From IMG/VR virus record IMGVR_UViG_3300005529_000005, positions 4,499 to 68,498 of that record: a stretch of 64,000 bases of DNA; one strand, given 5' to 3'. Shown one piece after another: positions 1 to 18,911 of this stretch (its first letter is position 1; every line of letters starts with the position of its first letter). This stretch comes from a virus. The notes beneath the pieces are model-generated. The model made no database searches. It saw only the letters and a list, made by a program, of their open reading frames with translations, and was not told where the DNA came from. The position numbers were made by a program, and so were the translations under genes.

Positions 1-2
1 TC

Positions 3-940: not shown

Positions 941-944
941 AGTG

Positions 945-2517: not shown

Positions 2518-3239
2518 TGGCCGACAACGCCCAGAAGACCCCGATCGCGCGCTCGCTGGAGGCCTTCGGTCACCGGAAGGTCCTCGGCGTCCTCGCTCAG
2601 GTCGGGAAGGCGCTCCCGGCCTCCGTCGTCTCGCGCGTCGGTCAGATCGTCACGGTGAAGTTCGAGATCACTACCACCCCGAACTCCCCCTACACGCTCC
2701 CGCCCATCACCGTGCCGCTGGTCGGCTCCCAGTACGTGCGCCTCCCGATCCAGCCGGGCGAGCTCGGCATGGTGATGACGGCGGACGCCTACCTCGGCGG
2801 GATGACGGGTCTCGGCGGCGGGACGGCGGACCTCTCGCGCCACGCGAACCTCTCCTGCCTCGTGTGGACGCCGCTCGCGAACAAGAACTGGACGCCGGCG
2901 ATCGACGACGACTCGCTGGAGCTGATCGGCCCGAACGGCGTGATCCTCCACAACAACGCGAAGACCGCTATCCTGAAGGTGACGACGGCGGAGTGCTCGT
3001 GGACGCCTCCCCCGGGCATCCCGATCCAGCTCAACGGCAACGTGGTGCTGAACGGGAACCTCCAGATCAACGGCTCCATCCAGAACTTGACCGGCGGCAC
3101 CTACGCGGGCGACCTGAAGACCTCGGGCAACGTGATCGCGGGCGTCGGCACCGGGGACCAGGTCGGGCTGAAGACGCATACGCACGGCGGGGTCTCGACC
3201 GGCAGCGGGACGTCGGGCGCGCCGACGCCGGGGAGTTGA
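2517..3239 (+). CDS. Baseplate central spike (gpV/Gp138-like)
   Basis: N-terminal OB-like region, beta-helical middle, C-terminal LKTHTHGGV HxH metal-binding apex motif. Confidence 0.85.
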   Translation: MADNAQKTPIARSLEAFGHRKVLGVLAQVGKALPASVVSRVGQIVTVKFEITTTPNSPYTLPPITVPLVGSQYVRLPIQPGELGMVMTADAYLGGMTGLGGGTADLSRHANLSCLVWTPLANKNWTPAIDDDSLELIGPNGVILHNNAKTAILKVTTAECSWTPPPGIPIQLNGNVVLNGNLQINGSIQNLTGGTYAGDLKTSGNVIAGVGTGDQVGLKTHTHGGVSTGSGTSGAPTPGS

Positions 3240-3241
3240 GC

Positions 3242-3625
3242 ATGAGGACCTACGGACGAATCTTCGCCTTCAACCCGGACGGCTCGAAGCGGAACCCTCA
3301 GCCGGCCGGCTACCCGTACTGGGTGGAGGTCACGACCGACGCGAACGGCTTCGACGACGACGTGTGGCTGACCACGCTCTGCCAGAACTTCCTCCTCAAC
3401 CTGGGCGAGTCCCCGTTCTACGCTCAGTGCGGGCTCCCCGCTCAGCCGACCATCGTCCAGCAGGTGCAGCCGGACTTCTACGTATCGAGGATCCAGCAGC
3501 AGTTCGCGCCCTACTTCGCCAACCTCGTGATCGCCAAGCAGGCCAGCAACCCGCCGACCTACAAGGTGAACGTGACGAAGCACAACGGGTCCAAGGTCTC
3601 GCTGTCGGTGCAGATACCGCAGTGA
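3242..3625 (+). CDS. Baseplate wedge/sheath-initiator-like protein
   Basis: 127 aa between spike and baseplate J; LLNLGESPFYAQCGLP segment; call rests mainly on synteny. Confidence 0.55.
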   Translation: MRTYGRIFAFNPDGSKRNPQPAGYPYWVEVTTDANGFDDDVWLTTLCQNFLLNLGESPFYAQCGLPAQPTIVQQVQPDFYVSRIQQQFAPYFANLVIAKQASNPPTYKVNVTKHNGSKVSLSVQIPQ

Positions 3626-3655
3626 CGTGGTAGCATCGGCTGAGGAGGGGCTCGC

Positions 3656-5104
3656 ATGGCCGCCGACATTCCCGTCATCATGACCGCGGCCGGCGCTCAG
3701 CCGACCCCGCCGGCTACGCTTCTCGCCGACCTGATCCAGATCGTCCTCGCGACGAACTCGGGCTACACGGCGAACCTCCCGGGCTCGCTCGTGGAGGACG
3801 TTAGCTCGACCGAGGTCGCGGGCCTCGCGGTGGCGGACTCCGCGCGCGTCGAGACCATCAACTCGATCAGCCCGAACGGGGCGAACCTCTTCATCCTCTC
3901 GCAGCTCGGCCAGGTCTACATCGGCCCCGGCGCCGCGCCCGCGCCGCCGTCGAACACGTCGGTCGAGGTCACCTTCACGGCGCTCGACCCGAACACGTCG
4001 GCCCCGCTCTCGGGCTACGTCGTCACGATGGGCTTCGTGGTCTCCGACGGGACCTACCAGTACATCGCGCAGGACAACGGGGTGACCAACTCCAGCGGTC
4101 AGGTCACCGTCTTCTGCGTCTCGCCGACGACCGGCTCCTGGGCGGTCCCGACGAACTCCGTCACCACCATCGTGACCTCCGTCCCCTCGACCGTGTCGCT
4201 GAGCTGCGCGAACCCGACGCCGGGGACCTCCGGGGCGGCCGCGGAGACGGCGGAGCAGTACCTCGCCCGCGTCATGCAGGCGGGGCAGGCCGTCTCGACC
4301 GGGTCGACGACGCTCCTGAAGACGCTTCTTGGCCAGGTCTCCGGGGTGCAGCAACGCCTGATCTCGACGCGCCAGCAGACCGGGTCGTGGGAGATCATCG
4401 TCGGCGGCGGTGACCCGTACCAGGTCGCGGGCGCGATCTTCGAGTCCGGGCTCGACGTGTCGACCCTGGTCGGGTCGACGCTCCTCGTGACGAGCATCAC
4501 CCAGGCGAACCCGGGGGTCGTCACGACCAACCTCAACCACGGCTACACGACCGGGCAGACCGCCCAGATGAACGGCATCGTCGGCATGACGCCGCTGAAC
4601 GGCGTCAACGTGACGGTGACGGTCCTGACCGAGAAGACCTTCAGCATCGCGGTCAACACGTCGGGGATGCCCGCCTACGTCTCCGGCGGGATCGTGACGC
4701 CCAACCTCCGGAACCAGTCGATCAACATCTACGACGCGCCGGACGTGATCGTCGTGGTCTTCGTCCAGCCGCCGCAGCAGACCCTCACGATCGCGGCGAC
4801 GTACTCGACCACGGCCGCCAACTTCGCCTCCCAGGCGGCGGTAGCGCAGCTCGCCGCGCCGGCCATGGCCGCCTACGTCAACTCGATCACGGTCGGCGCC
4901 GCGCTGAGCCTCCTGATCCTCGAGGCCACGTTCCTCGCCGCCGTCTCCTCCGTCCTGCCGTCCTCGCAAATCTCCGCGCTCAACTTCGCGGTGTCGATCA
5001 ACGGCGTCCCGACCACGCCGTCCCTCGGCTCGTCGCTGATCCTCGGGGACCCGGAGAGCTACTTCTTCGCGACGACGGCCGGCATGGCCGTGTCGCAGGC
5101 CTGA
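3656..5104 (+). CDS. Baseplate J-like wedge protein with inserted beta-rich domain
   Basis: 482 aa; TPGTSGAAAETAEQYLARV resembles the J-family G..E+D..YR.R motif; internal ITQANPGVVTTNLNHGYTTG domain. Confidence 0.8.
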   Translation: MAADIPVIMTAAGAQPTPPATLLADLIQIVLATNSGYTANLPGSLVEDVSSTEVAGLAVADSARVETINSISPNGANLFILSQLGQVYIGPGAAPAPPSNTSVEVTFTALDPNTSAPLSGYVVTMGFVVSDGTYQYIAQDNGVTNSSGQVTVFCVSPTTGSWAVPTNSVTTIVTSVPSTVSLSCANPTPGTSGAAAETAEQYLARVMQAGQAVSTGSTTLLKTLLGQVSGVQQRLISTRQQTGSWEIIVGGGDPYQVAGAIFESGLDVSTLVGSTLLVTSITQANPGVVTTNLNHGYTTGQTAQMNGIVGMTPLNGVNVTVTVLTEKTFSIAVNTSGMPAYVSGGIVTPNLRNQSINIYDAPDVIVVVFVQPPQQTLTIAATYSTTAANFASQAAVAQLAAPAMAAYVNSITVGAALSLLILEATFLAAVSSVLPSSQISALNFAVSINGVPTTPSLGSSLILGDPESYFFATTAGMAVSQA

Positions 5105-5108
5105 CGCG

Positions 5109-6188
5109 ATGGCGCCCGCACCCGTCACGCTCCGCAGGGCCGCCGCGACCGTGATTCCGGTCGCCGGGCGCGCCGTCGTGGCGATGTGGGGTCCGCTGGT
5201 CGGCGGCTTCATCCAGAACCCCTACCTCGCGGCCGACCAGGGGATCGCGGAGGTCGAGACCCTATACGTCGACCTGAGCGGCAACCCGGCGGCGCTCCGC
5301 GAGACCGCGACGACGTTCGCGGTCCAGCCCGGCGAGACCTTCATCCTCGTCGGCAACCAGACGACGAGCGTCAGCGTCAATGCGGTGACGCAGGGCCACA
5401 AGTTCGCCGGGGTCGCGATCCAGCCGGCCACGCCGTTCCCGCCGAAGCCTCTTCCCGGGACGTTCCCGCCGAGCGGCCCGACGACGCTGATCGCCACGAT
5501 CCCGTCCTATCTCTACCAGGAGTACAACGACGACTCGGACCTCGAGGCCTTCGTGGGGGCCTACAACGTGCTGGCGCAGGTCTACGCGGCCTGGTTCGCG
5601 AACGTCCAGCTTCCCGTCTACACGAGCCCGACGATCACCGGCGCGCTCCTCGACTGGGTGGCGCAGGGCATCTACGGGATGGTGCGGCCGTCACTGGCGT
5701 CCGGGCTCGCCCACGTCGTCGGCCCGCTGAACACCTACGCCTTCAACACGCTGACGCTGAACCGCCGCAAGACCATCGGCCCGACGAACGTCACGGTGAC
5801 CTCGGACGACGTCTTCAAGCGGATCATGACGTGGAACTTCTACAAGGGGGACGGGAACGTCTTCAGCATCCGGTGGCTGAAGCGGCGGGTCATGCGCTTC
5901 CTCACCGGCGCGAACGGGTCGGCCCCGAACATCGACAACACGCTAGCGATCAGCGTCTCCGTCGGCGCGGGGATCATCTCGATCAAGATCAACGCCGGAA
6001 CGCGCACGGTCGTGGGCGGGTCTCTGCTCAACCGATTCGGCTTCAACAGCCGCGTCCCGCTGAACACGCTGACGACGCGCTTCGTGCCGAATTTGAATCA
6101 GTTTCCGCTGCAGAACGTGCTAAAGGAGGCCATCCAGGCGGGCGTCCTCCAGCTGCCGTTCCAGTACCAGTTCGTGGTCACCACCTGA
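5109..6188 (+). CDS. Baseplate wedge protein (DUF2612/gpI-like) with extra N-terminal domain
   Basis: Follows J; GALLDWVAQGIYG and DDVFKRIMTWNFYKGDG segments; first ~105 aa are paralogous to 8248..8559. Confidence 0.65.
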   Translation: MAPAPVTLRRAAATVIPVAGRAVVAMWGPLVGGFIQNPYLAADQGIAEVETLYVDLSGNPAALRETATTFAVQPGETFILVGNQTTSVSVNAVTQGHKFAGVAIQPATPFPPKPLPGTFPPSGPTTLIATIPSYLYQEYNDDSDLEAFVGAYNVLAQVYAAWFANVQLPVYTSPTITGALLDWVAQGIYGMVRPSLASGLAHVVGPLNTYAFNTLTLNRRKTIGPTNVTVTSDDVFKRIMTWNFYKGDGNVFSIRWLKRRVMRFLTGANGSAPNIDNTLAISVSVGAGIISIKINAGTRTVVGGSLLNRFGFNSRVPLNTLTTRFVPNLNQFPLQNVLKEAIQAGVLQLPFQYQFVVTT

Positions 6189-6201
6189 GGGGAGGCTGGG
6201 T

Positions 6202-6846
6202 TTGAGCAACGTCTTCGTCTTTGCGAACAATGCGTCGAGCGCGCTCGCCGCCCCGATCACGAACGTCGCGACCTCGGTCACCCTCTCCGCCGGCACGGGG
6301 GCGCTCTTCCCGAACCCGAGCGTCGGACCGCCACAGCAGCAGTTCGGGCTCACCTTCAACGACGCCGCGACCGGCCTCCTGACGGAGATTTGCTACTGCA
6401 CGGCGCGGTCGGGCGACACGCTCACGATCGTCCGAGCGCAGGAGGGGACGGTCGCGCTCTCGTGGCTCGCCGGCGACCTCGCCGCGAACCTCGTCACCGC
6501 CGGCATGATGGCGGCGATGCAGCAGAGCGCGGCGCTCAACCCGACGCGCCAGGTCACGACCTCGGGCGCCTTCACGATGACGACCTCGGACGCGGGCGGG
6601 GCCGTCGGCTTGAACCGGGTCTCCGGCGTGTCGGCGAGCTCGACGACGCTCCCGACCGGGGCGACCGCCGGGCAGCTCTACGCGATCGAGGATCTCGCCA
6701 GGAACTTCCAGGCGGCGCCGGTGACGGTCAGCTACCCGGCCGGTCAGACGGGACCCAACGGCGCGACCGAGCAGGTCCTCAACGTCAACGGCCAATGCGC
6801 TTACTTCCGCTACTACGGGAGCAACCAGTGGAGCTACAAGGCATGA
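6202..6846 (+). CDS. Tail fiber proximal/adapter protein
   Basis: FANNASSALAAPIT...EICYCTARSGDTLTIVRAQEGT is a common tail-fiber N-terminal module. Confidence 0.6.
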   Translation: MSNVFVFANNASSALAAPITNVATSVTLSAGTGALFPNPSVGPPQQQFGLTFNDAATGLLTEICYCTARSGDTLTIVRAQEGTVALSWLAGDLAANLVTAGMMAAMQQSAALNPTRQVTTSGAFTMTTSDAGGAVGLNRVSGVSASSTTLPTGATAGQLYAIEDLARNFQAAPVTVSYPAGQTGPNGATEQVLNVNGQCAYFRYYGSNQWSYKA

Positions 6847-8243
6847 CGATCTTCCGCCGCGCCCTCGCGGGCCTCTTCGCGCTCTTCCTCGCCTGCGCTC
6901 CCGTCGCGGCGCAGTTCGCCGACCAGGCGACGTGGGTCGGCAACGGCGCGGGCTCCGCCAACGCGCAGACGATCACCGTCCAGAACGCGACGAACCTCGC
7001 CGACCTCCTCGGCGTGAAGCTCGTCTACGTCCCGGCGGCGACGAACACCGGGCCGGCGACGATCAACATCAGCGGCAGCACCGGCTCCCCGTTCGGCGCG
7101 CAGAGCGTCCGCAAGCTGACGAACTCCGGGCTCCAGGCGCTCACCGGCTTCGAGCTGGTGAGCGGCCAGCCCGTCATGGTCATGTGGGACGGGACGTTCA
7201 TCGACATCCTGTCGGCGGGAACGCCCGTCGTCACGATCGCGCCTCCTCAGGGCTACCTGACGCCGTGCCAGGTCTCGTCGGGCTCGCCGGTCTCGGGCTG
7301 CACGGCCGGCCAAATCTACCAGACCGGGGACGTGGTCGCCGCGACGGCGCTCTACTACGAGCCGGCGGTCGGCAACCAGATTCCGATCTACAACGGGTCG
7401 GTCTTCGTCGAGCAGCCGTTCTCCGAGCTCACCCTCACGATCCCGTCGAGCCGTCTCGCGAACACGATCTACGACGTCTTCGTCACGACGACCTCCGCGG
7501 GCGCCTACAGCTCGACCGGCTCGCCGACCCTCTGCTTCGGCCCGGCGTGGACGACGTCGACCGCGGGCTCCGGCGCGCGCGGAACGGGCGCGGGTACCGC
7601 CCAGGTCGGTCAGACGAACGGCATCTGGACGAACACCGTCTCGATCAGCTGCGTCAACGGCGCCTCGACCTACACGGTCCCGGCGAACGGCGGGACCTAC
7701 GTGGCCTCGACCTGGATGGACGGGACGGCGGGTCAATGCACGTCGCACCTGACCTACGGCCGGAGCCGGAAGCGGTGCTACTGGAACGCCTGGAACCAGC
7801 AGCCGATCTACCTGAAGGCGGGGGACACGACGGCGGGGACCTTCGTCGACTCGTCGACGACCTACCAGCCGATCAACAACAACACCGCCAACAGCCTGAG
7901 CATACTGATCGGTCTGCCTGGTCAAGCGGTGAACCTCGAGCAGTATCTCTCGGCGCTATACAACTCGCTGCCGGTCAACTCGAACGCCTTCTTCTATCCC
8001 GGCATCGGCTACAACAGCACGTCGGCCGCGAGCGGCTACGCGGCGCCGGTCGACTACGTGATCCAGTCGTGCGCGGGGTGCTCGAACAACCTGCACTTCT
8101 CGATGACGGCGAAGTACGTCACCGTCCCGGCGATCGGCGTCCAGACGATCACGTCTCTCGACCAGATCGGCTCGGGCTCGGGCAGCATGACGGTCACCGG
8201 CGGCGAGGCCGGCAACCTCCTGACCGCGGCCTGGGGGGGCTGA
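6843..8243 (+). CDS. Tail fiber-like protein with predicted Sec signal peptide
   Basis: ATG overlaps upstream TGA; MTIFRRALAGLFALFLACAPVAA-Q leader; AATNTGPATINISG...MWDGT fiber domain; T/S/G-rich. Confidence 0.7.
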   Translation: MTIFRRALAGLFALFLACAPVAAQFADQATWVGNGAGSANAQTITVQNATNLADLLGVKLVYVPAATNTGPATINISGSTGSPFGAQSVRKLTNSGLQALTGFELVSGQPVMVMWDGTFIDILSAGTPVVTIAPPQGYLTPCQVSSGSPVSGCTAGQIYQTGDVVAATALYYEPAVGNQIPIYNGSVFVEQPFSELTLTIPSSRLANTIYDVFVTTTSAGAYSSTGSPTLCFGPAWTTSTAGSGARGTGAGTAQVGQTNGIWTNTVSISCVNGASTYTVPANGGTYVASTWMDGTAGQCTSHLTYGRSRKRCYWNAWNQQPIYLKAGDTTAGTFVDSSTTYQPINNNTANSLSILIGLPGQAVNLEQYLSALYNSLPVNSNAFFYPGIGYNSTSAASGYAAPVDYVIQSCAGCSNNLHFSMTAKYVTVPAIGVQTITSLDQIGSGSGSMTVTGGEAGNLLTAAWGG

Positions 8244-8247
8244 CCTG

Positions 8248-8559
8248 ATGGGCGTCACCCCGGTCCCGACCCTCACCAGCCAGGTGACCACCGGCGGCAC
8301 CGCCGTGGCCGTCGTCAGCGCGAACCCGAACGGCGGGATCATCCAGAACCCGATCGACGCGGCCGACCAGGCGATCGGCGGCGGCAACATCGAGCCGCTC
8401 TACGTCGACCCGACCGGCGCGCCGGCGACGACGACCGGGAACGGGACGACCTTCCGGATCGAGCCCGGCCAAATCTGGAACGTCATCGCCGGTCAGACGA
8501 CGTCGACGTCGATGAACGCTCCGACGAGCGGCCACAAGATCGCGGGGGTCCAATGGTGA
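8248..8559 (+). CDS. Small tail-associated beta protein
   Basis: 103 aa; clearly similar to the N-terminus of 5109..6188 (GGxIQNPxxAADQ...LYVD...GHKxAGV). Confidence 0.65.
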   Translation: MGVTPVPTLTSQVTTGGTAVAVVSANPNGGIIQNPIDAADQAIGGGNIEPLYVDPTGAPATTTGNGTTFRIEPGQIWNVIAGQTTSTSMNAPTSGHKIAGVQW

Positions 8560-10853
8560 AGCGTCTCCTCGCGGCGGCGCTCGCCGCGCTCCTCCTCGCC
8601 GGCGCCGCCCTCGCTCAGCCGTCCGGCGGAGGGCCGGGCCCAGGCCCGGTCCCGTCGCCGTGGCAGGTGAACGGCGCGAAGGTCTACCTCCCGAGCCAGC
8701 AGTGCGTGGTGATGCCGCAGTCCGTCACGGGCGGCTGCGAGGGCAACAACACGATCAACGCGGCCGGCATCTACGTGAACGGCTCGCCGGTCCTGACCGT
8801 CGCGACCGGCGCGTCGATCACGATCAACACGTCGACCATCGTCGGCGGCGTGTCGGGTCGCGTGCTGTACGACAACTCCGCGACGGTCGGCGAGTATACC
8901 CAGGCGCAGCTCACCGCGCAGATCAACCTGGCGACGGCCTCGCTCTCCGGCGCGCTCCCCGCCTGGCCGAACAACACGACGACCTTCTTCCGGGGCGACG
9001 GCAGCTACCAGACCTTGAACTGCGCCGCGCTCACGAACGCGAGCGCCTTCTGCTCGGGCACGAGCGCGGCGAGCCTGACCGGGACGCTGAACGCGGCGCA
9101 GATGCCGGCGCTCACCGGCGACGTGACGAGCTCGGTCGGGACGGTCGCGACGACGATCTCCGCGAACGCCGTCACCTACGCGAAGTTCCAGCAGGTCGCG
9201 GCCTCCTCCCTCGTCGGCAACCCGACGGTGAGCCTCGCCAACGCCCAGGGGATCACGCTCGGCGCCACGCTCTCGTTCTCGAGCTCGACGCTCCAGACGG
9301 GCGCGATCTCCGGAGACGTGACCTCCTCCGCGAACTCCTTCGCGACGACGGTGGCGAAGATCAACGGCGTCACGCTCGGGTCGACGACGGCGACGGCGGG
9401 CAACGTGCTGATCGGCTCCGGGACGCAGTGGGTGACGCAGCCCTTCTCCGGCGCGGTCTCGCTGACCTCCGGGGGCGTGACGGCGCTCACGTCCTCCGCC
9501 TTCGCCAACCCGGCGAGCCCTGGCGTCAACCTGACGGGGACGAACGGCGTCGCGACGACCGCGCTCCGCTCGGACGTGGTCCTCGTCCTCGACCAGTCCA
9601 TCGCCCCGAACTGGACCGGACAACACCAGTGGACCGTGGCGCGAACCGTGGCGTCGGCGTCGGGCGCGAACCTCGACGACGTCGTCGTCCAGGCGGCTAC
9701 CTCCACGCTGACCGGCACGACGACCGTGACCAAGTTCAACAAGGTCACGGTCTACCGGCCGATCTTCACCGACGCCTCCGCCGGGACGGTGACGGACGCG
9801 GCGAGCCTCTACGTCGACAACTCCCCGAGCTGCACCGGCTCCCTGACCTGCACGAACCAGTGGGCGATCCGCGTCGGCGCCGGGAACGTCTCCTTCCCCG
9901 GCTCGGCGAACGTCCTCGGCACGATCACGTCCGGGACGTGGAACGGCTCCGTCGTCGACATGGCGCACGGCGGCTCGGGCGCGAACCTGACCGCGGTGAA
10001 CGGCGGCCTGATCTACTCCAACGCCTCGACCATGGCGGTGCTGGCGGCCCCGGGGAGCGCAAGCCTGTGCCTGGTCTCCTCCTCCGCCACGGCGTTCGGC
10101 TGGGCCTCGTGCTCCGGCGGCGCGGCGGTCGCGTCGGTGTCGAACAGCGACGGCACGCTGACCATCAGCCCGACGACGGGCGCGGTGGTGGCCTCGATCG
10201 CGCTCGGCCACGCGAACACCTGGACGGCCGCGATCACCGACACGGTCGCTCCTCCGCAGATCATCCTCGGCGTGAACACGACGACCGGGGGCGCGATCAA
10301 GTTCTTCGGCGCGACGTCGGGCAACGTGACGCTCCAGCCGGCGGCCGCGGCGGGTACGAACACGACGCTGACGCTCCAGGGCGTCACCGACACCATAGCG
10401 GTGCTCGGGACGAACCAGACGTACAGCGCGACGCAGACCTTCTCCGGGACGCTGAACGTCTCCGGGACGTTCCAGTCCGGCGGCAACACGATGACGTTCC
10501 CGGGCTCCGCCGGAACCTTGGCGGCGCTCAACATCGCCGACCAGACCGTGACCGGCGGCGCGAACGTCACGACGCTCGCCCTCTCGACGGGCAACGTCAC
10601 GATCGACGCCGGCTCGCGGCCGATCCAGTCGATCACGAACGGAGGCGCCTTCACGATCACGGCGCCGGCGAACGACGGCTCCTGCATCCTGATCATCACG
10701 AACAACGCGAGCGCCGGCGCGGTGACCTTCTCCGGCTTCACGGCCGGCTCGGCGACGGGCGCGACCCTCGACACCGTGAACACGCACAAGTTCTCGGTCT
10801 TCATCTGGCGCGCGGGCGGTACGTCGGGCTATTCTATATACGCGCATCAGTAG
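8553..10853 (+). CDS. Long beta-structured tail fiber/adhesin-like protein with predicted signal peptide
   Basis: MVKRLLAAALAALLLAGAALA-Q leader; 766 aa T/S/A/G-rich with LTGDVTSS/ISGDVTSS fiber repeats. Confidence 0.7.
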   Translation: MVKRLLAAALAALLLAGAALAQPSGGGPGPGPVPSPWQVNGAKVYLPSQQCVVMPQSVTGGCEGNNTINAAGIYVNGSPVLTVATGASITINTSTIVGGVSGRVLYDNSATVGEYTQAQLTAQINLATASLSGALPAWPNNTTTFFRGDGSYQTLNCAALTNASAFCSGTSAASLTGTLNAAQMPALTGDVTSSVGTVATTISANAVTYAKFQQVAASSLVGNPTVSLANAQGITLGATLSFSSSTLQTGAISGDVTSSANSFATTVAKINGVTLGSTTATAGNVLIGSGTQWVTQPFSGAVSLTSGGVTALTSSAFANPASPGVNLTGTNGVATTALRSDVVLVLDQSIAPNWTGQHQWTVARTVASASGANLDDVVVQAATSTLTGTTTVTKFNKVTVYRPIFTDASAGTVTDAASLYVDNSPSCTGSLTCTNQWAIRVGAGNVSFPGSANVLGTITSGTWNGSVVDMAHGGSGANLTAVNGGLIYSNASTMAVLAAPGSASLCLVSSSATAFGWASCSGGAAVASVSNSDGTLTISPTTGAVVASIALGHANTWTAAITDTVAPPQIILGVNTTTGGAIKFFGATSGNVTLQPAAAAGTNTTLTLQGVTDTIAVLGTNQTYSATQTFSGTLNVSGTFQSGGNTMTFPGSAGTLAALNIADQTVTGGANVTTLALSTGNVTIDAGSRPIQSITNGGAFTITAPANDGSCILIITNNASAGAVTFSGFTAGSATGATLDTVNTHKFSVFIWRAGGTSGYSIYAHQ

Positions 10854-10883
10854 AGTGCGCTCCTCCCGACCCGGAGACCTCCC

Positions 10884-11729
10884 ATGAGAGAGAAGATCAG
10901 CGGGGCCGCGATGTGGCTCTGCAGCCTCACGCTCGCCGGCGTGCTCGCGCTGGGGATGTTCGCGCCGCGCTCGCACGCGGCTAATCCGCCGATCGACGCG
11001 GAGACCTTGCGACTGTTCGCCGGTCAGCAGCGTTGCGCGCAGATCGGCCCGCTCCCGTGCGTAGCGCCGCTCCCGCCGCCGGCCGGACCGCAGACCGTGA
11101 CGTTCAACGAGAACGTCGACACGACCTCCTGCGGCACGAGCTGTAGCTTCACCAGCGAGGCGATCAGCGCGACTTGCCCTAATCGGGTGGTTGTCGGGGC
11201 GCTCTCAGGCGTGAACACGGGTAGCACGAGCAATCAGTCCGTCTCGGGGACTATTGCCGGCGTGACGCTGACGCAGGCCGTCGCGCAGACCAACAACAAC
11301 GGTACGAACGGCTACTGGTCCGCTGTCGTCTACGCGGCCGTGCCGAGCGGAACGACGGCGACTTTCGCGCTCACCTTATCCGTCTCTACGATCCGCGTCG
11401 GGCTAGGCGTCTATACGCTCTGCAATCTCAACTCCACGACGGCGAAGAACACGGTAGGGGCGAACAACTCTGGTACTACGGTGACGCTGAATGTGAACAC
11501 CGCGGTCGGAGACGTGGCAGTCGGGTCAGGACACAATGACGCTGGAAGCACCTCGACTTGGTCCGGCGCTACGAAGGACTTCGACGACAACGTCGGAGCT
11601 ACCGGCTCCATCACGACGGGGGCGCACTTCGCCGAGACGGCAGCGCAGACCCCGCGGGCGGTGAGCACGACGTGGGGGTCATGCTCTGGCGGCAACTTCT
11701 GCTCTGGCGCGCTCGCGACGTGGCACTGA
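10884..11729 (+). CDS. Secreted beta-sandwich protein (possible tail tip/lectin-like domain)
   Basis: Hydrophobic leader ending RSHA-A; Pro linker; T/S/G-rich beta domain with Cys pairs. Confidence 0.55.
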   Translation: MREKISGAAMWLCSLTLAGVLALGMFAPRSHAANPPIDAETLRLFAGQQRCAQIGPLPCVAPLPPPAGPQTVTFNENVDTTSCGTSCSFTSEAISATCPNRVVVGALSGVNTGSTSNQSVSGTIAGVTLTQAVAQTNNNGTNGYWSAVVYAAVPSGTTATFALTLSVSTIRVGLGVYTLCNLNSTTAKNTVGANNSGTTVTLNVNTAVGDVAVGSGHNDAGSTSTWSGATKDFDDNVGATGSITTGAHFAETAAQTPRAVSTTWGSCSGGNFCSGALATWH

Positions 11730-11731
11730 CC

Positions 11732-12862
11732 ATGCGCGCCCTCATCGCTCTTTGCGCGTGGCTCCTCGCCGCAGGCGTCGCGCTCGCGCAGCAGACCATC
11801 CCGGCGCTCTCCCCGGTCGGCTCCCAGAACACGAGCGTCGTCACCTATCAGGCCGGCGCCAACTGGGTGCCGTCCGCCTACGCGATCACCGGCTTCTGCT
11901 CGACGTGCTCCAACGGCTCAGGCGGAACGACCGCTACGAAGTCGTGGCAGTTTCAGGCGCTCGTCGGAACGACGTGGCAGACGCTCGACACCCAGACGAA
12001 CGTCTCGTTCACCAGCAACCAGAAGCTCACCTTCCCGCTCACGGGCGCGCCGGCGGGATCGCAGTGGCGTCTCGTCATCACGAGCAACAACGACCCGCTG
12101 ATCAACGTGGTCGAGCTCGACGTGATCGGCTCCCCCTCGGTAGCCGTCCCTCCTCCGCGACCGCCCGTGACCTTCTCCTACGGATGGACGAGCCCGGGCT
12201 CGCTTCCGACCAACGACGCGATCCAGGGGTCGTGCGGGTCGCTCGCGTGCTGGACGTTCCAGGTGGCGACCTGGGCGCAGATGCAGTCGTCGCTCCTCGC
12301 GGGAGGATCGTACGACCTGTGGGTCGGGGACTCGATCACGGCGCTGTGCGACGTGAACCAGGCCTCTCCCTTCGGCGTGAACATGGCCATCCCGGGCAAC
12401 ACGGTGAACGGCCTGATCAACGAGCTCGCTCAGATCAACAGCGGGTTCGGCGGTCAGACGGCGGGAACGTCGCTGCCCGTGGTCCACGCCCTCATCATCA
12501 ACATCGGCGTGAACGATATCGGAACGCTCGGCAGCGACGCCGCGACGATCGAGGGGAAGCTCCAGGCCCTCTTCAACTCGTGGAGCGGACCGCTGATCTG
12601 GACGGGAATCTGGCCTACGCCGTCGAACACCGGATGGAAGACCGAGATCGACCAGGTCAACGCCTGGGCCTCGTCGTTCCTGGCGACCCGCGCGCACACG
12701 CACGACGTCACCGCTCAGATGAACGCCGCGCTGTCGTCGGGCGGGTTCATGATCCCGAGCTACGAGCTGGTGGTCGGCGGCACCGCCGGCATCCACTACA
12801 ACGGCTCCGGATGCACGGCCGCCATGGCGGTGACCGCCGCGTCCCTTCAGCAGCCGTTCTGA
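11732..12862 (+). CDS. Secreted SGNH/GDSL esterase with N-terminal discoidin (F5/8C)-like domain
   Basis: Leader MRALIALCAWLLAAGVALA-Q; KSWQFQA...WQTLDTQ...WRLVITSNN..VVELDV module; SGNH blocks VGDSIT, AIPG, NIGVND, GIHYN. Confidence 0.75.
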   Translation: MRALIALCAWLLAAGVALAQQTIPALSPVGSQNTSVVTYQAGANWVPSAYAITGFCSTCSNGSGGTTATKSWQFQALVGTTWQTLDTQTNVSFTSNQKLTFPLTGAPAGSQWRLVITSNNDPLINVVELDVIGSPSVAVPPPRPPVTFSYGWTSPGSLPTNDAIQGSCGSLACWTFQVATWAQMQSSLLAGGSYDLWVGDSITALCDVNQASPFGVNMAIPGNTVNGLINELAQINSGFGGQTAGTSLPVVHALIINIGVNDIGTLGSDAATIEGKLQALFNSWSGPLIWTGIWPTPSNTGWKTEIDQVNAWASSFLATRAHTHDVTAQMNAALSSGGFMIPSYELVVGGTAGIHYNGSGCTAAMAVTAASLQQPF

Positions 12863-12906
12863 GCGCCCTCTTGTAGCGCACAGCCTCCCCGTGCGATGAT
12901 CCCCTC

Positions 12907-12934
12907 CTCCCTCCCCCTTTTGCGGGGGAGGGAG
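12907..12934. promoter_or_regulatory. Perfect 11-bp stem-loop in intergenic region
   Basis: CTCCCTCCCCC-TTTTGC-GGGGGAGGGAG upstream of 12956; function unknown. Confidence 0.4.
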
Positions 12935-12955
12935 ATCGCAACAGGGAGCCTTTCC

Positions 12956-13372
12956 ATGAAGTCCGTCCTCGTCGCGGCCGCGCTCGCGGTCGCCCTCGTC
13001 ACACCCGCCCTCGCCGTCGACTTCTCCGCGCCCGTCACGAAGGAGGACGGCGAGCCCTACATGGAGTGCCTGAAGCCGGACCCGGCGAACGCGAACAACT
13101 GCCTCGCGCCGACGGTACCGATGACGCTCGGCCACATGGTGGCGAACGCGCTGAACGTCCCGGCGCCCGGCCTGAAGAACGACGTCATCGTCGCTCGAGG
13201 CCTCCTCGCGATGAAGATCCGGGAGGCGAGGAGCGTGGACCTCACCGCGCAGGAGCGCGACCTGATCAAGGCGTGCCTGTTCGAGTCGGTCGAGCGCCTG
13301 AGCTACCGCCCGGTCGCGGTCGTCCAGGCGCTCCGCGCGATCGACCCCGCCTCGCTCGAATCGGCCAAGTGA
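12956..13372 (+). CDS. Secreted hypothetical protein
   Basis: ACAGGGAG RBS; leader MKSVLVAAALAVALVTPALA; Cys pair ECLKPDPANANNC. Confidence 0.65.
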   Translation: MKSVLVAAALAVALVTPALAVDFSAPVTKEDGEPYMECLKPDPANANNCLAPTVPMTLGHMVANALNVPAPGLKNDVIVARGLLAMKIREARSVDLTAQERDLIKACLFESVERLSYRPVAVVQALRAIDPASLESAK

Positions 13373-13384
13373 GGAGGCGCGCCC

Positions 13385-14167
13385 ATGTCGTCCCTCCGCT
13401 CCCTCGTCGACGCGCACGGCGTCATCGCCGAGGGTCAGGGCTCGCCGGGTAACCCCGACGCGGCCGTCCTCGCCGCGCAGCTCGCGCTCTCCCAGGCCGG
13501 CTACCGCGTCGAGCAGGACGGCGTCTTCGGCGCCGGGACGCTCTCCGCCGTCGAGCGGCTCCAGCGTCAGCACGCGCTGACGGTCGACGGGAAGATCGGG
13601 GACGCGACCGCCGACCTCCTCGACCAGCCGCACGGTGCGCTCGTCGCGGTCGCTCTGCCGATCACGGTCGACGTCCCGGTCGGCGCGGCGACGGTCACCT
13701 TCCCGCACGACGACACGGCGTCGCTGCTGGCCTTCTACGGCAGGCCGTGGGCGGACTCCTCCCTCCTCGTCCCGGTCACGCTGCCGTTCCGGCTGACGTA
13801 CGAGGGCAAGCCGTTCGGCGAGAAGGTGAGCTTCCACCGGAAGGCGGCGGACCGCCTGGCGGCGGCCTTCGCGGCGGTGTGGGACAAGTACGGCCACGAC
13901 CTGGCCGCGCTCGACGCGACGGGCGTCACGCGCTTCTCGGGGACCTACAACTATCGTCCGATCCGCGGCTCCTCGCGGCTCTCCTGCCACGCCTTCGGCG
14001 CCGCCATCGACCTGGACGCGGAGGTTCTCCCTCTCGGCAAGCCGAACCCGGAGCACGGCGGGATGCCGCTCGACGTCGCCGCGTGCTTCAAGGCTCAGGG
14101 GTTCTTCTGGGGCAACGACTACCTCGGCCGGAAGGACCCGATGCACTTCCAGTCCGCGCACGAGTGA
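13385..14167 (+). CDS. Endolysin 1: peptidoglycan-binding domain plus M15-family Zn peptidase
   Basis: QLAL...DGVFGAGTLSAVERLQ...LTVDGKIG PG-binding motif; SCHAFGAAIDLD and DPMHFQ M15 motifs. Confidence 0.9.
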   Translation: MSSLRSLVDAHGVIAEGQGSPGNPDAAVLAAQLALSQAGYRVEQDGVFGAGTLSAVERLQRQHALTVDGKIGDATADLLDQPHGALVAVALPITVDVPVGAATVTFPHDDTASLLAFYGRPWADSSLLVPVTLPFRLTYEGKPFGEKVSFHRKAADRLAAAFAAVWDKYGHDLAALDATGVTRFSGTYNYRPIRGSSRLSCHAFGAAIDLDAEVLPLGKPNPEHGGMPLDVAACFKAQGFFWGNDYLGRKDPMHFQSAHE

Positions 14168-14174
14168 CCTCGTC

Positions 14175-15068
14175 ATGATGCACCTTTTCCCCTCGCTCGC
14201 GCCCGACTACGCCGCCTGGATCGACCACGCCCAGGTCCGCCCCGAGGTCGAGGGCGAGCTGGACGAGGTCTGCAGGAAGGCGCTGATCCCGGGCCTCCCG
14301 AAGCTGAAGGCGGGCTGCGACGAGCTCGGCGTTCCCCTCGTGTGGGCGGCGGCGAGCTTCTACCGGGAGGCCGGCTACGACTTCCGCGACTCGCCCGCGC
14401 AGGGCGACCGGTGGGACGCGCGCTCGATCCACGTCCCGGCCGGCCTCGGGCCGTACCGGAGCTTCACCGACGCTCAGGTCGCCGCCTACAGGATCGACGG
14501 CATCGAGAAGTACGCCGGTCAGTGGACCCTCGAGCTTGCGCTCTTCCTGTGGGAGCTTTTCAACGGCTTCGGCTACCGCGACCGCTGGCGCATCCGCTCC
14601 CCCTACGACGTCGCCGGGACGACGATCCAGCAGAAGGGGAAGTACATCGCGGACGGGCAGTTCTCCTACGGCGTGATGGACCAGCAGCTCGGGTGCCTCG
14701 CGATGTACCTCGGGATGGTCGCGCTCGACGCCTCGCTGGCGCTCCCGCGTCAGGCCGGGGTCGCGACGGTCGCCGCGCCGGCGCCGCAGCCTTCGCCGTC
14801 GCCGATCCACGTCGTGCGCGATGTCGCGTGGACGCAGGCCGCGCTCGACAAGGTGATGACCGACGACGCGGCCTTCCTCGCGCTGGTCAAGCGGTCGGGG
14901 ATCGACGTGCTGCGGGTCGACGGCGACCTCGGCAAGAAGACGCGCACGGCGGTTCGCGCCTTCGAGCAGTATCGCGGGCTCGAGGTCGACGCGGGACTGC
15001 CCGGGTCTCAGGTCGTCGGCGAACTCGACAAGATCCTCGGCGACGGATGGACGCCGCCGAGCGCGTGA
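14175..15068 (+). CDS. Endolysin 2: lysozyme-family protein (COG5526-like) with C-terminal PG-binding domain
   Basis: ELFNGFGYR...SPY..AGT..QKGKYIADG...DQQLG; C-terminal VDGDLGKKTRTAVRAFE. Confidence 0.8.
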   Translation: MMHLFPSLAPDYAAWIDHAQVRPEVEGELDEVCRKALIPGLPKLKAGCDELGVPLVWAAASFYREAGYDFRDSPAQGDRWDARSIHVPAGLGPYRSFTDAQVAAYRIDGIEKYAGQWTLELALFLWELFNGFGYRDRWRIRSPYDVAGTTIQQKGKYIADGQFSYGVMDQQLGCLAMYLGMVALDASLALPRQAGVATVAAPAPQPSPSPIHVVRDVAWTQAALDKVMTDDAAFLALVKRSGIDVLRVDGDLGKKTRTAVRAFEQYRGLEVDAGLPGSQVVGELDKILGDGWTPPSA

Positions 15069-15100
15069 GCCGGAAGGCTCGAAACAGGGGAGAGGGAAGC

Positions 15101-15664
15101 ATGAGGGCTCTTCGGAAGGTCGCCATCGTCGCGGGGCTCGCGCTCGTCGCGGCGGCCAGCGTCGCGATCGCGCAGACGGCGGGGACCGGCGCGGCCGCGC
15201 CCGGACCCGCGCCGGCGGCGGTGGTCGACACCGGCACCTACGCCGGCCAGGCGCTCACCTGGGTCGTCACGACGTTCGGCGGGACGGTCGGCGCCGCGCT
15301 GACGGCGCTCCTCCTGCGCTACCTGAAGAACGCGGGCATCCAGGGCGCGGATCTCCTGCGCAGCCGCCTCCAGGAGATCATCGTCAACGGGCTGAACATG
15401 GCCGCCGCCGACGCCGCGAAGCGGCTGGAGGGGCGCGGGAAGGTCGAGATAAAGAACGAGGCGGTCGGCCAGGCGGTGCGCTACGCTCAGGTCCACGGCG
15501 CCGACATCCTGAAGCAGCTCGGCCAGGACCCGATGGCGCAGACGACCGTCGACGCGATCAAGGCGCGGATCGAGACGGTGATCGTCGACCCCGCCACGCC
15601 GACGAACCCCTCGCTCGCCGCCGCGCCCGCGCCGAAGCCTGACCAGCAGGCGTCGAAGGGTTGA
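15101..15664 (+). CDS. Holin-like membrane protein
   Basis: Follows the endolysins; hydrophobic leader plus one TM segment, then charged helices (LQEIIVNGLN...AVRYAQ) resembling LLH-type holins. Confidence 0.5.
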   Translation: MRALRKVAIVAGLALVAAASVAIAQTAGTGAAAPGPAPAAVVDTGTYAGQALTWVVTTFGGTVGAALTALLLRYLKNAGIQGADLLRSRLQEIIVNGLNMAAADAAKRLEGRGKVEIKNEAVGQAVRYAQVHGADILKQLGQDPMAQTTVDAIKARIETVIVDPATPTNPSLAAAPAPKPDQQASKG

Positions 15665-16371
15665 CCACGATGCCGCTGACGCACCGCGCCCTCGCGCTCC
15701 TGGTGGCGGCCCTCTACGGAGAGGCGGGCGCGCCGCCGGTGACGTGGCTCTACCGCGCCCCGGACGACGCGCCCGTCATGTTCGCCGTCGTCAGGATCGG
15801 TCGCTATCTGATCGTGGTGACGCGCGGCTCCCGGACCTTCATGGACTGGGTCCACGACGCGATCGCGCTGGCGCGCTCGCCGCTCGACCACCCGGAGTTC
15901 GGGCTCGTGCACGTCGGCTTCTACGACGGGATCACGGTCGCCTGGGAGATCCTGGCGCCGATGATCGGTCCGGACGACGTCGTGATCTTCCTGGGCCACT
16001 CCCTCGGCTCCCCGCACGCGGAGTTCCTGGCGGCGCACATGCTGACCCAGATGAAGCGCGTACCGTTCGTCGGGCGGTGGGCGCCGCCGAAGCCGGGCTT
16101 CCAGAAGTTCGCCGACATCCTCGCGCCGGCGCCCGGCTTCGCGTACGACAACTACGACGTGATCGGCTTCGACCCCGTCGTCGAGCTCGCCTGGACGACG
16201 CGGGACTTCCCCTACGTGCACACGAGCCCGCTGACCCAGGTGACCCGGGCGCCCTCCCAGAACATCCTCCTCGACCTCGGTCCGCAGTTCGCGTGGCACC
16301 ACTTCGAGAACTACCTCGCGGCCACGCCCGAGACCCCGGTCGTTTTTCTCGGGAGTGTTGCCGGCGGGTGA
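15661..16371 (+). CDS. Lipase class 3 (alpha/beta hydrolase)
   Basis: VVTRGS..FMDWVHD, LVHVGFYDG and the GHSLG nucleophile elbow. Confidence 0.85.
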   Translation: MTTMPLTHRALALLVAALYGEAGAPPVTWLYRAPDDAPVMFAVVRIGRYLIVVTRGSRTFMDWVHDAIALARSPLDHPEFGLVHVGFYDGITVAWEILAPMIGPDDVVIFLGHSLGSPHAEFLAAHMLTQMKRVPFVGRWAPPKPGFQKFADILAPAPGFAYDNYDVIGFDPVVELAWTTRDFPYVHTSPLTQVTRAPSQNILLDLGPQFAWHHFENYLAATPETPVVFLGSVAGG

Positions 16372-16454
16372 CGGTCCAGCGCGCTCCCCGGTGATAGCCT
16401 CCGGTTGCCCCGGCCTTGGTCGGGGGGAATCAACCCAACACGAGGAGAACGCTT

Positions 16455-17180: not shown

Positions 17181-17225
17181 TCAGCACTGACAGCGTCCCG
17201 CAGGACGTGTAATTTACCTCCCTGA

Positions 17226-17265
17226 GGCCGCCGGCGATTCGCGCGCCGGCGGCCCTTTCCTTTTC
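17226..17265 (+). terminator. Rho-independent terminator
   Basis: GGCCGCCGGCG-(7 nt)-CGCCGGCGGCC followed by CTTTCCTTTTC, downstream of the OMP gene. Confidence 0.7.
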
Positions 17266-17280
17266 TGGGGAGAGGGGAGG

Positions 17281-17523
17281 ATGGATTGGACGTGGCTCTG
17301 GGATCAGGCGAAGCAGGCGAGCCCGTTCGTCGCGGTGTTCTGCCTCGGCGCGTGGGCCGTCGACCGAAGCGTCTTGTGGCGCCGTCACGTCCAGGACATC
17401 AAGACGATCGAGAGCATGGCCCGGAGCACGACCCGTGCTATGCTCGCCCAGGCGAAGAGCACGGCTCGGCTCAGCTCGAGCGTTCAGCGGCTCCTCGACA
17501 ATGTCCGCAATGGGCAGCGATGA
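17281..17523 (+). CDS. Small membrane protein (possible holin/antiholin)
   Basis: GGGGAGG RBS; one N-terminal TM segment then a coiled coil. Confidence 0.6.
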   Translation: MDWTWLWDQAKQASPFVAVFCLGAWAVDRSVLWRRHVQDIKTIESMARSTTRAMLAQAKSTARLSSSVQRLLDNVRNGQR

Positions 17524-18190: not shown

Positions 18191-18209
18191 GGAGCGCCGA
18201 GGGGGAGCC

Positions 18210-18910: not shown

Positions 18911-18911
18911 C

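What the first reader, a model, noticed from the sequence alone, without database searches (positions are those of the whole stretch)
6843..13372. Five consecutive tail-locus proteins carry Sec signal peptides and paired cysteines
Seen: leaders MTIFRRALAGLFALFLACAPVAA-Q (6843), MVKRLLAAALAALLLAGAALA-Q (8553), ...LAGVLALGMFAPRSHA-A (10884), MRALIALCAWLLAAGVALA-Q (11732), MKSVLVAAALAVALVTPALA-V (12956). The mature parts have close Cys pairs (CQVSSGSPVSGC, SCAGC, CVVMPQSVTGGC, CAALTNASAFC, CTGSLTC, SCGTSC, CSGGNFC, FCSTC, CGSLAC), and three begin with Gln. Established: tail fibers normally fold in the cytoplasm, while disulfides form in the periplasm. Inference: these receptor-binding appendages are exported, oxidatively folded and join the virion at or after lysis, or act as secreted envelope-remodelling factors. 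Either would be an unusual assembly route.
Basis: partly seen in the sequence, partly recalled or inferred. Interest (0 to 1): 0.82.

Follow-up and report, generated by a model that had tools for sequence, protein, structure and literature searches.

The report
Phage tail fibres carrying export signals
A complete 74-kb contractile-tailed phage genome puts a textbook secretion signal and paired cysteines on everything beyond a short baseplate-bound fibre stub, so its host-recognition proteins most likely fold in the periplasm, apart from the cytoplasm-built particle, a route I could not find described for tailed phages.

Summary
Five late genes (A 6843-8243, C 8553-10853, D 10884-11729, E 11732-12862, F 12956-13372) start with n-h-c leaders that obey the -3/-1 rule. 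A leaderless 103-aa gene (B) sits between A and C.

The leaders are not a high-GC artefact. In 57 homologs of A, at 37-62% identity and 50-68% GC, the leader is present, -1 is always Ala and +1 always Gln. Cysteine columns appear and vanish strictly in pairs. In C's mosaic fibre family, leader-bearing members have 3.4 times more Cys and an even count in 57 of 64.

A folds as a fibre bead, an RBP shoulder and a TNF-like head. The same module occurs without a leader, and with few Cys, in podophage tailspikes and fused in Pam5 gp18. The upstream 214-aa protein is a baseplate anchor plus a gp9/TSP4-type XD1 domain.

Export and oxidative folding are well supported (about 0.85). Whether these proteins then dock on virions at lysis (about 0.5) or act as free proteins (about 0.3) is unresolved. 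Only A and C are fibre-like. E is an esterase-like protein; D and F are unknown.

This scan has noted the same pattern in several other phage genomes.

The parts
5109..6188 (+). Baseplate wedge protein (359 aa, 0 Cys, no leader). Residues 32-102 form an extra N-terminal domain that is paralogous to B.
   Evidence: phrog_8212, E 5e-66. Syntenic genes carry Pfam Phage_Wedge1. blastp against B gives 52% identity, E 2e-19.
6202..6846 (+). Fibre stub (214 aa, no leader): an N-terminal baseplate anchor followed by a C-terminal XD1-type beta-sandwich (residues 104-214). The protein ends right after XD1.
   Evidence: Tail-fibre PHROGs match the N-terminus. Residues 6-134 match PDB 8jov_1 'putative tail fiber protein', E 4e-9. 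In the AF2 model the C-domain has pLDDT about 85 and matches CBA120 TSP4 XD1 (7rej 75-177, Z 11.7, rmsd 3.3, 101 aligned) and KP1 baseplate 9f4a_Le (Z 11.0).
6843..8243 (+). A (466 aa): leader 1-23 (nt 6843-6911), fibre bead 26-130, RBP shoulder about 132-320, TNF/C1q-like head 320-466. The mature protein has 8 Cys.
   Evidence: AF2 pLDDT 91.4. Residues 26-130 match Pa193 tail fibre gp47, residues 241-339 (Z 8.8, 32% identity). The shoulder resembles Mtd, TssK and the phage 1358 RBP. The head resembles the PLTL and BC2L-C lectins and Bdellovibrio fibre tips. 57 homologs carry the leader and an AxA|QF site.
8248..8559 (+). B (103 aa, no leader, 0 Cys): a free copy of the wedge N-terminal domain, translationally coupled to C.
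   Evidence: blastp. A homolog sits in the same position in L005.
8553..10853 (+). C (766 aa): leader 1-21, a Pro-rich mature N-terminus, and a mosaic fibre with DUF5907 repeats and a phage-fibre-type C-terminal domain. It has 9 Cys (four close pairs and one single).
   Evidence: Pfam DUF5907, E 1e-5. Homologs carry Peptidase_S74, Collar and Pectate_lyase_3. Its ESM Atlas neighbours are virus-only fibre clusters. Close homologs keep the leader and the AQPGPGP...W..NG start.
10884..11729 (+). D (281 aa): leader 1-32; the mature protein has 8 Cys. Fold family unknown.
   Evidence: The one close homolog, P0242, has a leader and the same 8 Cys. The distant relatives P0243 and P0244 lack a leader and have 1-2 Cys. 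Its ESM clusters are almost all viral.
11732..12862 (+). E (376 aa): leader 1-19, a carbohydrate-binding-like N-domain (about 40-135) and an SGNH/GDSL esterase-like C-domain. The mature protein has 6 Cys.
   Evidence: Lipase_GDSL_2, E 1e-5, below the gathering score; phrog_17517 tail protein. GDS and GxND blocks are visible in the sequence. The six nearest full-length homologs carry leaders and 4-8 Cys.
12956..13372 (+). F (138 aa): leader 1-20, 3 Cys. A conserved small exported protein just upstream of the endolysin.
   Evidence: The homolog in L002 (10762-11202) has a leader, E 2e-14. Its ESM clusters are virus-only.
13385..15068 (+). Two soluble endolysin-type proteins without leaders: PG_binding_1 plus Peptidase_M15_4, and a second PG_binding_1 protein.
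   Evidence: Pfam and PHROGs.
17226..17254 (+). The only strong terminator-like hairpin on the + strand downstream of the tail genes. It marks the end of the presumed late transcription unit.

Best explanation
The phage builds its baseplate and a short trimeric fibre stub (anchor plus XD1 domain) in the cytoplasm. Every distal host-recognition module, A, C and probably D, E and F, is made with a cleavable Sec signal peptide.

These modules are exported unfolded and cut by signal peptidase I at AxA. For A this leaves an invariant N-terminal Gln. They are then oxidised by the host Dsb system and trimerise in the periplasm.

The two endolysins have no leader, so lysis should depend on a large-hole holin. 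When the holin opens the inner membrane, finished particles and periplasmic fibres meet inside the still-intact outer membrane. The fibres then dock on the stub and baseplate, as T4 long fibres dock last on gp9.

Shown here by sequence statistics and models: the leaders, their conservation, the disulfide signature, the fibre/RBP folds, and the adaptor-type fold of the stub. Inferred only: export itself, cleavage, and the docking step. Confidence is about 0.85 for export and oxidative folding and about 0.5 for docking on the virion.
For: Leaders:
- In 57 of 57 A homologs there is Ala at -1 and Gln at +1, and in 50 of 57 Ala at -3.
- Leader length is 18-36 aa and net charge +1 to +4.
- The leader sequence itself is only 19% identical, against 44% for the first 10 mature residues.
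- The leader is kept in low-GC relatives such as L002.

Disulfide signature:
- Cys columns 142/153 occur together 53 times, singly 0 times, and are both absent twice.
- Columns 213/284 occur together 41 times and singly 0 times. They are mutually exclusive with 231/270.
- In the C family, leader-bearing members have a median 1.18 Cys per 100 aa against 0.34 (p 1e-12). The count is even in 57 of 64 (p 8e-11), against 24 of 45.

A is a true RBP. Its RBD is found without a leader in podophage tailspikes, in Pam5 gp18 (fused to a stub-like N-half, no Cys visible in the translation), in Rivra (1 Cys) and in a Hyphomicrobiales prophage (0 Cys).

Leader-bearing podophage versions keep the same N-terminal domain that opens the leaderless tailspikes, presumably their particle-binding domain (E 1e-12).

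The stub C-domain has the XD1 fold of the T4 gp9/gp10 and CBA120 TSP4 adaptors. XD1 followed by leader-bearing A is conserved behind three different anchor types and two to three wedge types, always with overlapping stop and start codons.

No integrase was found, and no terminator lies inside the block.
Against: There is no experimental evidence of export, cleavage or virion content for any member.

The one complex prediction (stub 100-214 x3 with A 24-135 x3) gave no verdict.

B, which is coupled to C, has no leader and would sit in a different compartment from C.

The CBA120 authors regard XD1 as a spacer, not a docking domain (PMC8825819), and the stub lacks XD2 and XD3.

XD1-type folds also bind glycans (StcE, CpaA), so the stub alone could be the virion's fibre.

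C and F have odd Cys counts.

Docking after lysis would have to compete with dilution.
Confidence: 0.5

Rival explanations
1. The proteins are exported but never join the virion. They work as free periplasmic or released proteins. Possible roles are lectins and esterases that strip or modify the host's own surface polysaccharide during infection, receptor destruction that protects progeny from debris, or halo-type enzymes released at lysis. The virion's own fibre would be the 214-aa stub.
For: E is a CBM plus SGNH-esterase-type protein. XD1-type folds bind glycans in StcE and CpaA (PMC8825819), so the stub could be a complete short fibre. Bacterial precedents exist for exported tailspike- or fibre-like trimers: WceF (PMC7949094) and the Bdellovibrio MAT fibres (PMC10769870). 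The docking prediction gave no support (no verdict).
Against: A keeps a fibre-shaft bead homologous to Pa193 gp47 and is always translationally coupled to the XD1 stub. Leader-bearing podophage relatives keep the N-terminal domain that opens the leaderless tailspikes. The genome has no other leaderless RBP candidate. About 6.5 kb, or 9% of the genome, would be spent on non-structural fibre look-alikes in every member of the lineage.
Confidence: 0.3
2. The hydrophobic N-termini are not removed. They act as signal anchors that hold the fibres on the periplasmic face of the inner membrane, or as structural helices within the fibre. Alternatively, a frameshift fuses the stub to A so that the leader becomes internal.
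For: AF2 draws residues 4-16 as a helix. The A frame is open upstream of the ATG in the high-GC members.
Against: Ala at -1 (57 of 57) and small residues at -3 (56 of 57) with a free -2 position fit a signal peptidase I site. The helix has pLDDT about 60 and does not pack on the fold. In L002 an in-frame stop lies 21 nt upstream of the start, and no slippery site is conserved. The Cys pairing implies an oxidising compartment in any case.
Confidence: 0.08
3. The genes are moron or lysogenic-conversion cargo: envelope proteins expressed from a prophage for the host's benefit, like lambda lom and bor.
For: A true moron-like gene, the Omp25-like barrel at 16455-17180, lies downstream and is followed by the only strong terminator.
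Against: The complete genome has no tyrosine or serine integrase. Codons overlap with the baseplate genes, and no promoter-like or terminator-like site lies inside the block. The folds are those of virion RBPs. The trait is conserved across a phage lineage and was not found in cellular genomes: one leaderless prophage hit in the genome-contig scan (185,579 species), which finds close relatives only.
Confidence: 0.05

Closest known systems
Branched RBP complexes built on gp10/gp9-type adaptors: CBA120 TSP4-N with TSP1-3 (PDB 7rej, PMC8825819), G7C gp66/gp63.1, and T4 gp9 with the long tail fibre
   Same: A baseplate-anchored trimer carries an XD1-type sandwich. The stub C-domain matches it at Z 11.7. 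Separately encoded RBPs, including an SGNH esterase in G7C (own knowledge), are added non-covalently and late in assembly.
   Different: The stub ends after XD1 and has no XD2 or XD3 docking jellyrolls. All the partner proteins here carry Sec leaders and paired Cys, which none of the known partners do.
Pseudomonas phage Pa193/E217 tail fibre gp47 and its simple baseplate (PDB 9b45, PMC11456595)
   Same: Same baseplate type: relatives carry Pfam E217_GP41, Pam3_gp18, Sheath_initiator and Phage_Wedge1. The first mature domain of A matches gp47 bead III (Z 8.8, 32% identity).
   Different: gp47 is one continuous cytoplasmic polypeptide. Here the fibre is split into a stub and a leader-bearing distal part.
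Pseudanabaena phage Pam5 gp18 'tail spike' and P22-like podophage tailspikes of group 2 (for example P0058)
   Same: They are homologous to A residues 133-466 (31% identity, E 3e-33). The N-half of Pam5 gp18 carries the stub's C-terminal motif.
   Different: They are single leaderless proteins with few or no Cys, and their N-terminal domain is fused on rather than separately encoded.
Bdellovibrio bacteriovorus MAT fibres (PMC10769870) and Pantoea WceF (PMC7949094)
   Same: Both have a signal peptide followed by a trimeric phage-type fibre or spike. The MAT tips include TNF-like domains with disulphides and S74 domains. The head of A resembles the Bd2734 and Bd2439 tips (Z about 5).
   Different: These are chromosomal bacterial genes that work on the cell's own surface or biofilm. 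WceF uses Tat. Neither is part of a virus genome or coupled to baseplate genes.

Membership tests
Sec (SPase I) signal peptide | Positively charged n-region and an uncharged hydrophobic h-region at the extreme N-terminus | tested here: met
   This holds for all five proteins. In 57 A homologs the net charge is +1 to +4 and the median uncharged run is 17 residues.
Sec (SPase I) signal peptide | Small residues at -3 and -1, with a variable -2 | tested here: met
   The sites are VAA|Q, ALA|Q, SHA|A, ALA|Q and ALA|V. In the A family -1 is Ala in 57 of 57, -3 is Ala, Ser, Val or Thr in 56 of 57, and 15 residue types occur at -2.
Sec (SPase I) signal peptide | Actual export and cleavage | not testable with these tools
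   SignalP was not available and no proteomics exist. The disulfide signature is indirect support.
Twin-arginine (Tat) signal peptide | A conserved S/T-R-R-x-F-L-K motif | tested here: not met
   A has FRRAL, but many homologs have KK or a single K or R. C has KR.
Phage receptor-binding protein / tail fibre (A) | Fibre shaft and RBP shoulder-head folds shared with solved virion proteins | tested here: met
   Pa193 gp47 bead (Z 8.8), the Mtd, TssK and phage 1358 shoulder (Z 4.4-6.4), and TNF-like heads (Z 8.3). Sequence homology to the Pam5 tail spike is E 3e-33.
Phage receptor-binding protein / tail fibre (A) | Presence in the virion | not testable with these tools
   No cultured relative with a leader was found among 50,697 phage records.
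gp9/gp10/TSP4-type adaptor (stub) | An N-terminal baseplate anchor followed by an XD1 beta-sandwich | tested here: met
   8jov_1, E 4e-9. 7rej XD1, Z 11.7.
gp9/gp10/TSP4-type adaptor (stub) | XD2 and XD3 jellyroll domains that bind partner trimers | tested here: not met
   The protein ends at residue 214, directly after XD1.
gp9/gp10/TSP4-type adaptor (stub) | Binds a separately encoded RBP | tested here: inconclusive
   Complex prediction gave no verdict. The identity correlation between stub C-domain and A N-domain is 0.49, against 0.33 for the A C-part, over 21 non-independent pairs.
Bdellovibrio MAT fibre family | Chromosomal bacterial genes sharing one conserved domain of about 130 aa after the signal peptide | tested here: not met
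   These genes lie in a complete phage genome. The post-leader domains differ between A, C, D and E.
SGNH/GDSL hydrolase (E) | A Pfam match over the gathering score, with catalytic blocks I, III and V | tested here: inconclusive
   PF13472 scores 26.3 bits against a cut-off of 32.9. VGDSITA and GVNDIG are present, but a block V D-x-x-H is not clear.
Moron / lysogenic-conversion gene | Own promoter and terminator, on a temperate phage | tested here: not met
   No promoter-like or terminator-like site lies inside the block, and codons overlap. No integrase was found.

The most novel reading that the evidence does not exclude
A lineage of contractile-tailed phages, and by convergence several podophage lineages, finishes its virions across two compartments. 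The receptor-binding fibres are Sec-exported and disulfide-bonded in the periplasm. They snap onto a cytoplasm-built stub only when the holin opens the inner membrane.
Probability: 0.45. Interest if true: 0.88.

Novelty: new variant of a known kind. Interest (0 to 1): 0.78.

Why it matters
Tailed-phage particles are taught as wholly cytoplasmic assemblies. A conserved class of RBPs that needs Sec and Dsb would add a new assembly step and new host dependencies.

It would also explain why such RBPs misfold when expressed in the cytoplasm. It would change how metagenomic phage proteins with signal peptides are annotated, since they are now often dismissed as non-structural.

It would matter for engineering the host range of soil and rhizosphere phages as well. 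The split layout here, a leaderless stub plus leader-bearing distal parts, offers a clean genetic handle for testing the idea.

Tried and rejected
- Complex prediction of stub 100-214 x3 with A 24-135 x3 gave no verdict. It is not evidence either way.
- phmmer of A, of C and of the A N-domain against the PDB found nothing useful.
- tblastn of A, C, a leader-bearing podophage homolog and an S74 fibre against 50,697 phage records found only leaderless relatives: Pam5, Rivra, PAE2, P4282 and Paso. No cultured phage is therefore available for a proteomics look-up.
- The genome-contig scan gave one distant leaderless prophage hit. The viral-contig scan with F found nothing.
- A frameshift fusion of the stub and A is unlikely.
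- Tat export is rejected because the RR motif is not conserved.
- A phage-encoded DsbA was not found.
- An independent-pairs test of leader against Cys count on the RBD tree was underpowered, with 3-4 transitions. The mirror-identity test is only suggestive.
- Five literature searches found no description of Sec-exported tailed-phage fibres. The library lacks most subscription journals.
Full report
**Context.** The window is bases 4499-68498 of a 74,093-bp IMG/VR virus record with direct terminal repeats, scored 100% complete. GC content is about 0.69. A GC3-guided gene map shows one long + strand block:
- hub, g1480
- gpV-type spike with an Apex motif, g2517
- J-like protein, g3656
- wedge, g5109
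- a 214-aa fibre 'stub', 6202-6846
- A, 6843-8243
- B, 8248-8559
- C, 8553-10853
- D, 10884-11729
- E, 11732-12862
- F, 12956-13372
- two leaderless endolysin-type proteins, 13385-15068
- a leader-plus-TM protein, a class-3 lipase-like protein and an Omp25-like barrel

Syntenic relatives carry Pfam E217_gp31_N (sheath), Phage_Tube_PhiTE, Pam3_gp18, E217_GP41, Sheath_initiator and Phage_Wedge1. This is therefore a myophage with a simple E217/Pa193-type baseplate.

No promoter-like site was found in 1-19000. No + strand terminator-like site lies between 1402 and 17226 except a weak-looking hairpin beyond this block. The only strong hairpin follows the barrel gene.

No tyrosine or serine integrase and no DsbA is encoded anywhere in the genome.

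**The observation.** All five leaders and all the quoted Cys motifs are present as written. The predicted cleavage sites are VAA|QF (A), ALA|QP (C), SHA|AN (D), ALA|QQ (E) and ALA|VD (F).

Start codons are fixed by gene packing. The stub stop and the A start overlap as ATGA, B and C overlap, and D and E are 2 nt apart.

Two corrections are needed. The run is interrupted by B, which has no leader and no Cys. Mature Cys counts are 8, 9, 8, 6 and 3, so not all are even.

A whole-genome scan with a crude n-h-c and -3/-1 filter finds convincing leaders only between window 6843 and 17180.

**Is the leader real or a high-GC artefact?** A has at least 375 homologs. The 57 homologs that share its whole architecture (37-62% identity, from contigs of differing GC content) all carry a leader:
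- Ala at -1 in 57 of 57
- Ala, Ser, Val or Thr at -3 in 56 of 57
- 15 different residues at -2
- Gln at +1 in 57 of 57
- leader length 18-36 aa and net charge +1 to +4
- only 19% pairwise identity in the leader, against 44% in the first ten mature residues

That is the signature of a cleaved signal peptide. It does not look like a structural helix or a mis-called start. AF2 gives the leader a detached helix with pLDDT about 60, in front of a model with mean pLDDT 91.

Close homologs of C, D, E and F also keep leaders.

**Disulfide signature.** In the A family, Cys columns come and go strictly together:
- 142/153: both present 53 times, one alone 0 times, neither 2 times
- 213/284: both 41 times, one alone 0 times, neither 14 times
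- 290/313: both 7 times, one alone 0 times
- the 213/284 pair is mutually exclusive with a 231/270 pair

Among 120 mosaic fibre proteins related to C, the 64 with a leader have a median of 1.18 Cys per 100 aa, against 0.34 in the 56 without (Mann-Whitney p 1e-12). The Cys count is even in 57 of 64 with a leader (binomial p 8e-11), against 24 of 45 non-zero cases without one.

The same contrast holds case by case. Rivra, Paso and the Hyphomicrobiales prophage homolog have 0-1 Cys, and no Cys is visible in the Pam5 gp18 translation. None of them has a leader. D and its close homolog share 8 Cys and a leader, whereas D's distant leaderless relatives have 1-2 Cys.

These proteins evidently fold where disulfides form.

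**What the proteins are.** The AF2 model of A has three parts:
- Residues 26-130 superpose on bead III of the Pa193 tail fibre gp47 (9b45_2 residues 241-339, Z 8.8, rmsd 3.2, 94 aligned, 32% identity; PMC11456595).
- Residues 132-320 resemble the shoulder of Mtd, TssK and the lactococcal phage 1358 RBP.
- Residues 320-466 form a TNF/C1q-like jelly roll, as in the PLTL and BC2L-C lectins, cyanophage fibre tips and Bdellovibrio fibre tips (Z 8.3 down to about 5).

By sequence, A residues 133-466 are homologous to the C-terminal half of the Pam5 gp18 tail spike (E 3e-33). They are also homologous to tailspikes of about 470 aa that sit in the classical podophage position, have no leader, and open with MANRF..PYAGGSLxFYxSGTSTP.

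A third group carries a leader followed by that same N-terminal domain, which is presumably the particle-binding domain (blastp E 1e-12). On a tree of the shared RBD, the leader state changes at least three times.

C is a mosaic fibre. It has DUF5907, and its relatives carry Peptidase_S74, Collar and Pectate_lyase_3. E has a tail-protein PHROG / CBM-like N-domain and an SGNH-like C-domain with GDS and GxND blocks, but scores below Pfam's cut-off. D and F fall in almost purely viral clusters of unknown function.

**The stub.** Its N-terminus matches tail-fibre PHROGs and a solved virion fibre (8jov_1, E 4e-9).

Its C-terminal 110 residues fold with pLDDT about 85 as the XD1 sandwich of CBA120 TSP4. 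The matches are 7rej residues 75-177 (Z 11.7) and the KP1 baseplate chain 9f4a_Le (Z 11.0). T4 gp9 and gp10 have the same fold (PMC8825819). Those proteins are adaptors onto which separately made fibres or spikes are hung.

Across seven lineages the N-terminal anchor of the stub comes in three unrelated types, matching different wedge proteins. The XD1 domain and the overlapping start of leader-bearing A are constant.

Pam5 gp18 contains the stub's terminal motif (AEFRSDGISKWTV), then a linker, then the A-type shoulder. The two genes here therefore correspond to one fibre that is continuous elsewhere.

**Mechanism.** The best reading is as follows:
- The distal RBPs are exported by Sec.
- They are cleaved and oxidised, and they trimerise in the periplasm.
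- They meet the cytoplasm-built particles when the holin opens the inner membrane.
- They dock on the stub and baseplate.

Soluble, leaderless endolysins imply a large-hole holin. That such holes are large enough to pass virions is from my own knowledge of lambda lysis.

Several points argue for docking:
- A retains a fibre-shaft bead.
- Podophage relatives with leaders retain the N-terminal domain of the leaderless tailspikes.
- The XD1/A coupling is conserved.
- The genome has no other leaderless RBP.

Several points argue against it, or leave it unresolved:
- No proteomics exist for any member.
- The complex prediction gave no verdict.
- XD1 is regarded as a spacer in CBA120 and is a glycan binder in StcE and CpaA, so the stub could be a complete short fibre.
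- B is cytoplasmic although it is coupled to the exported C.

The main rival is that A to F are free exported lectins or esterases acting on the host envelope or released at lysis. Retention of the leader, a frameshift fusion and moron status are each unlikely.

**Comparison and novelty.** The closest known systems are:
- branched RBP complexes on gp10/gp9-type adaptors
- the continuous Pa193/E217 fibre
- the Pam5 tail spike
- among exported look-alikes, the bacterial MAT fibres of Bdellovibrio (PMC10769870) and Tat-exported WceF (PMC7949094)

None of these is a virus-encoded, Sec-exported fibre set. Five full-text searches found no such description, although the library is incomplete.

This scan's own earlier notes report the same leader-plus-paired-Cys pattern in other phage genomes. 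One of them, e1-5345735, is another split myophage fibre. Those are unchecked AI notes and I do not count them as support. They do show that the trait recurs.

This case adds the following:
- cleavage-site and Cys-covariation statistics
- the three architectural flavours of one RBD
- identification of the stub as an anchor plus XD1 adaptor
- the free copy of a wedge domain (B)

**Verdict.** The feature is real, conserved and unusual. Export and oxidative folding are well supported. The final destination of the proteins needs an experiment.

Noticed in passing
window 8248-8559 and 5109-6188: B is a free-standing copy of residues 32-102 of the wedge protein (52% identity, E 2e-19). B and that wedge N-domain occur together with C-type fibres (window, L005). 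Both are absent in L006, L009 and L002. B may be a second fibre socket or a placeholder.
   Followed up: partly
window 15155-15664: A 169-aa protein with a leader-like N-terminus (…SVAIA|Q) and a second hydrophobic segment, with no Pfam hit. It is a holin or spanin candidate just after the endolysins.
   Followed up: no
window 15661-16371: A class-3 lipase-like protein (PF01764, E 9e-6) lies between the lysis genes and the Omp25-like barrel. It may help disrupt the outer membrane.
   Followed up: no
window 16455-17180 and 17226-17254: An Omp25/RopB-like beta-barrel with a leader is followed by the only strong terminator of the late block. It looks like a moron and points to a Hyphomicrobiales (Rhizobiales) host.
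   Followed up: no
window 945-1481 (- strand): An HNH-type endonuclease-like gene lies on the opposite strand inside the tail operon.
   Followed up: no
whole genome G000: No tyrosine or serine integrase and no DsbA homolog is found in the complete 74-kb genome. A small HTH_3 protein (49760-50047, - strand) is present.
   Followed up: partly
L004 (Pam5) 4906-5711: In the cultured cyanophage Pam5, the two small genes directly after the leaderless tail spike (gp19 and gp20) both start with signal-peptide-like leaders and contain several Cys.
   Followed up: no
L022 8443-13315 and L019 7996-10020: Podophage-like contigs have a leader placed directly in front of a tailspike-type N-terminal domain. 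In L022 it is followed by a 987-aa protein with a leader and 14 Cys.
   Followed up: partly
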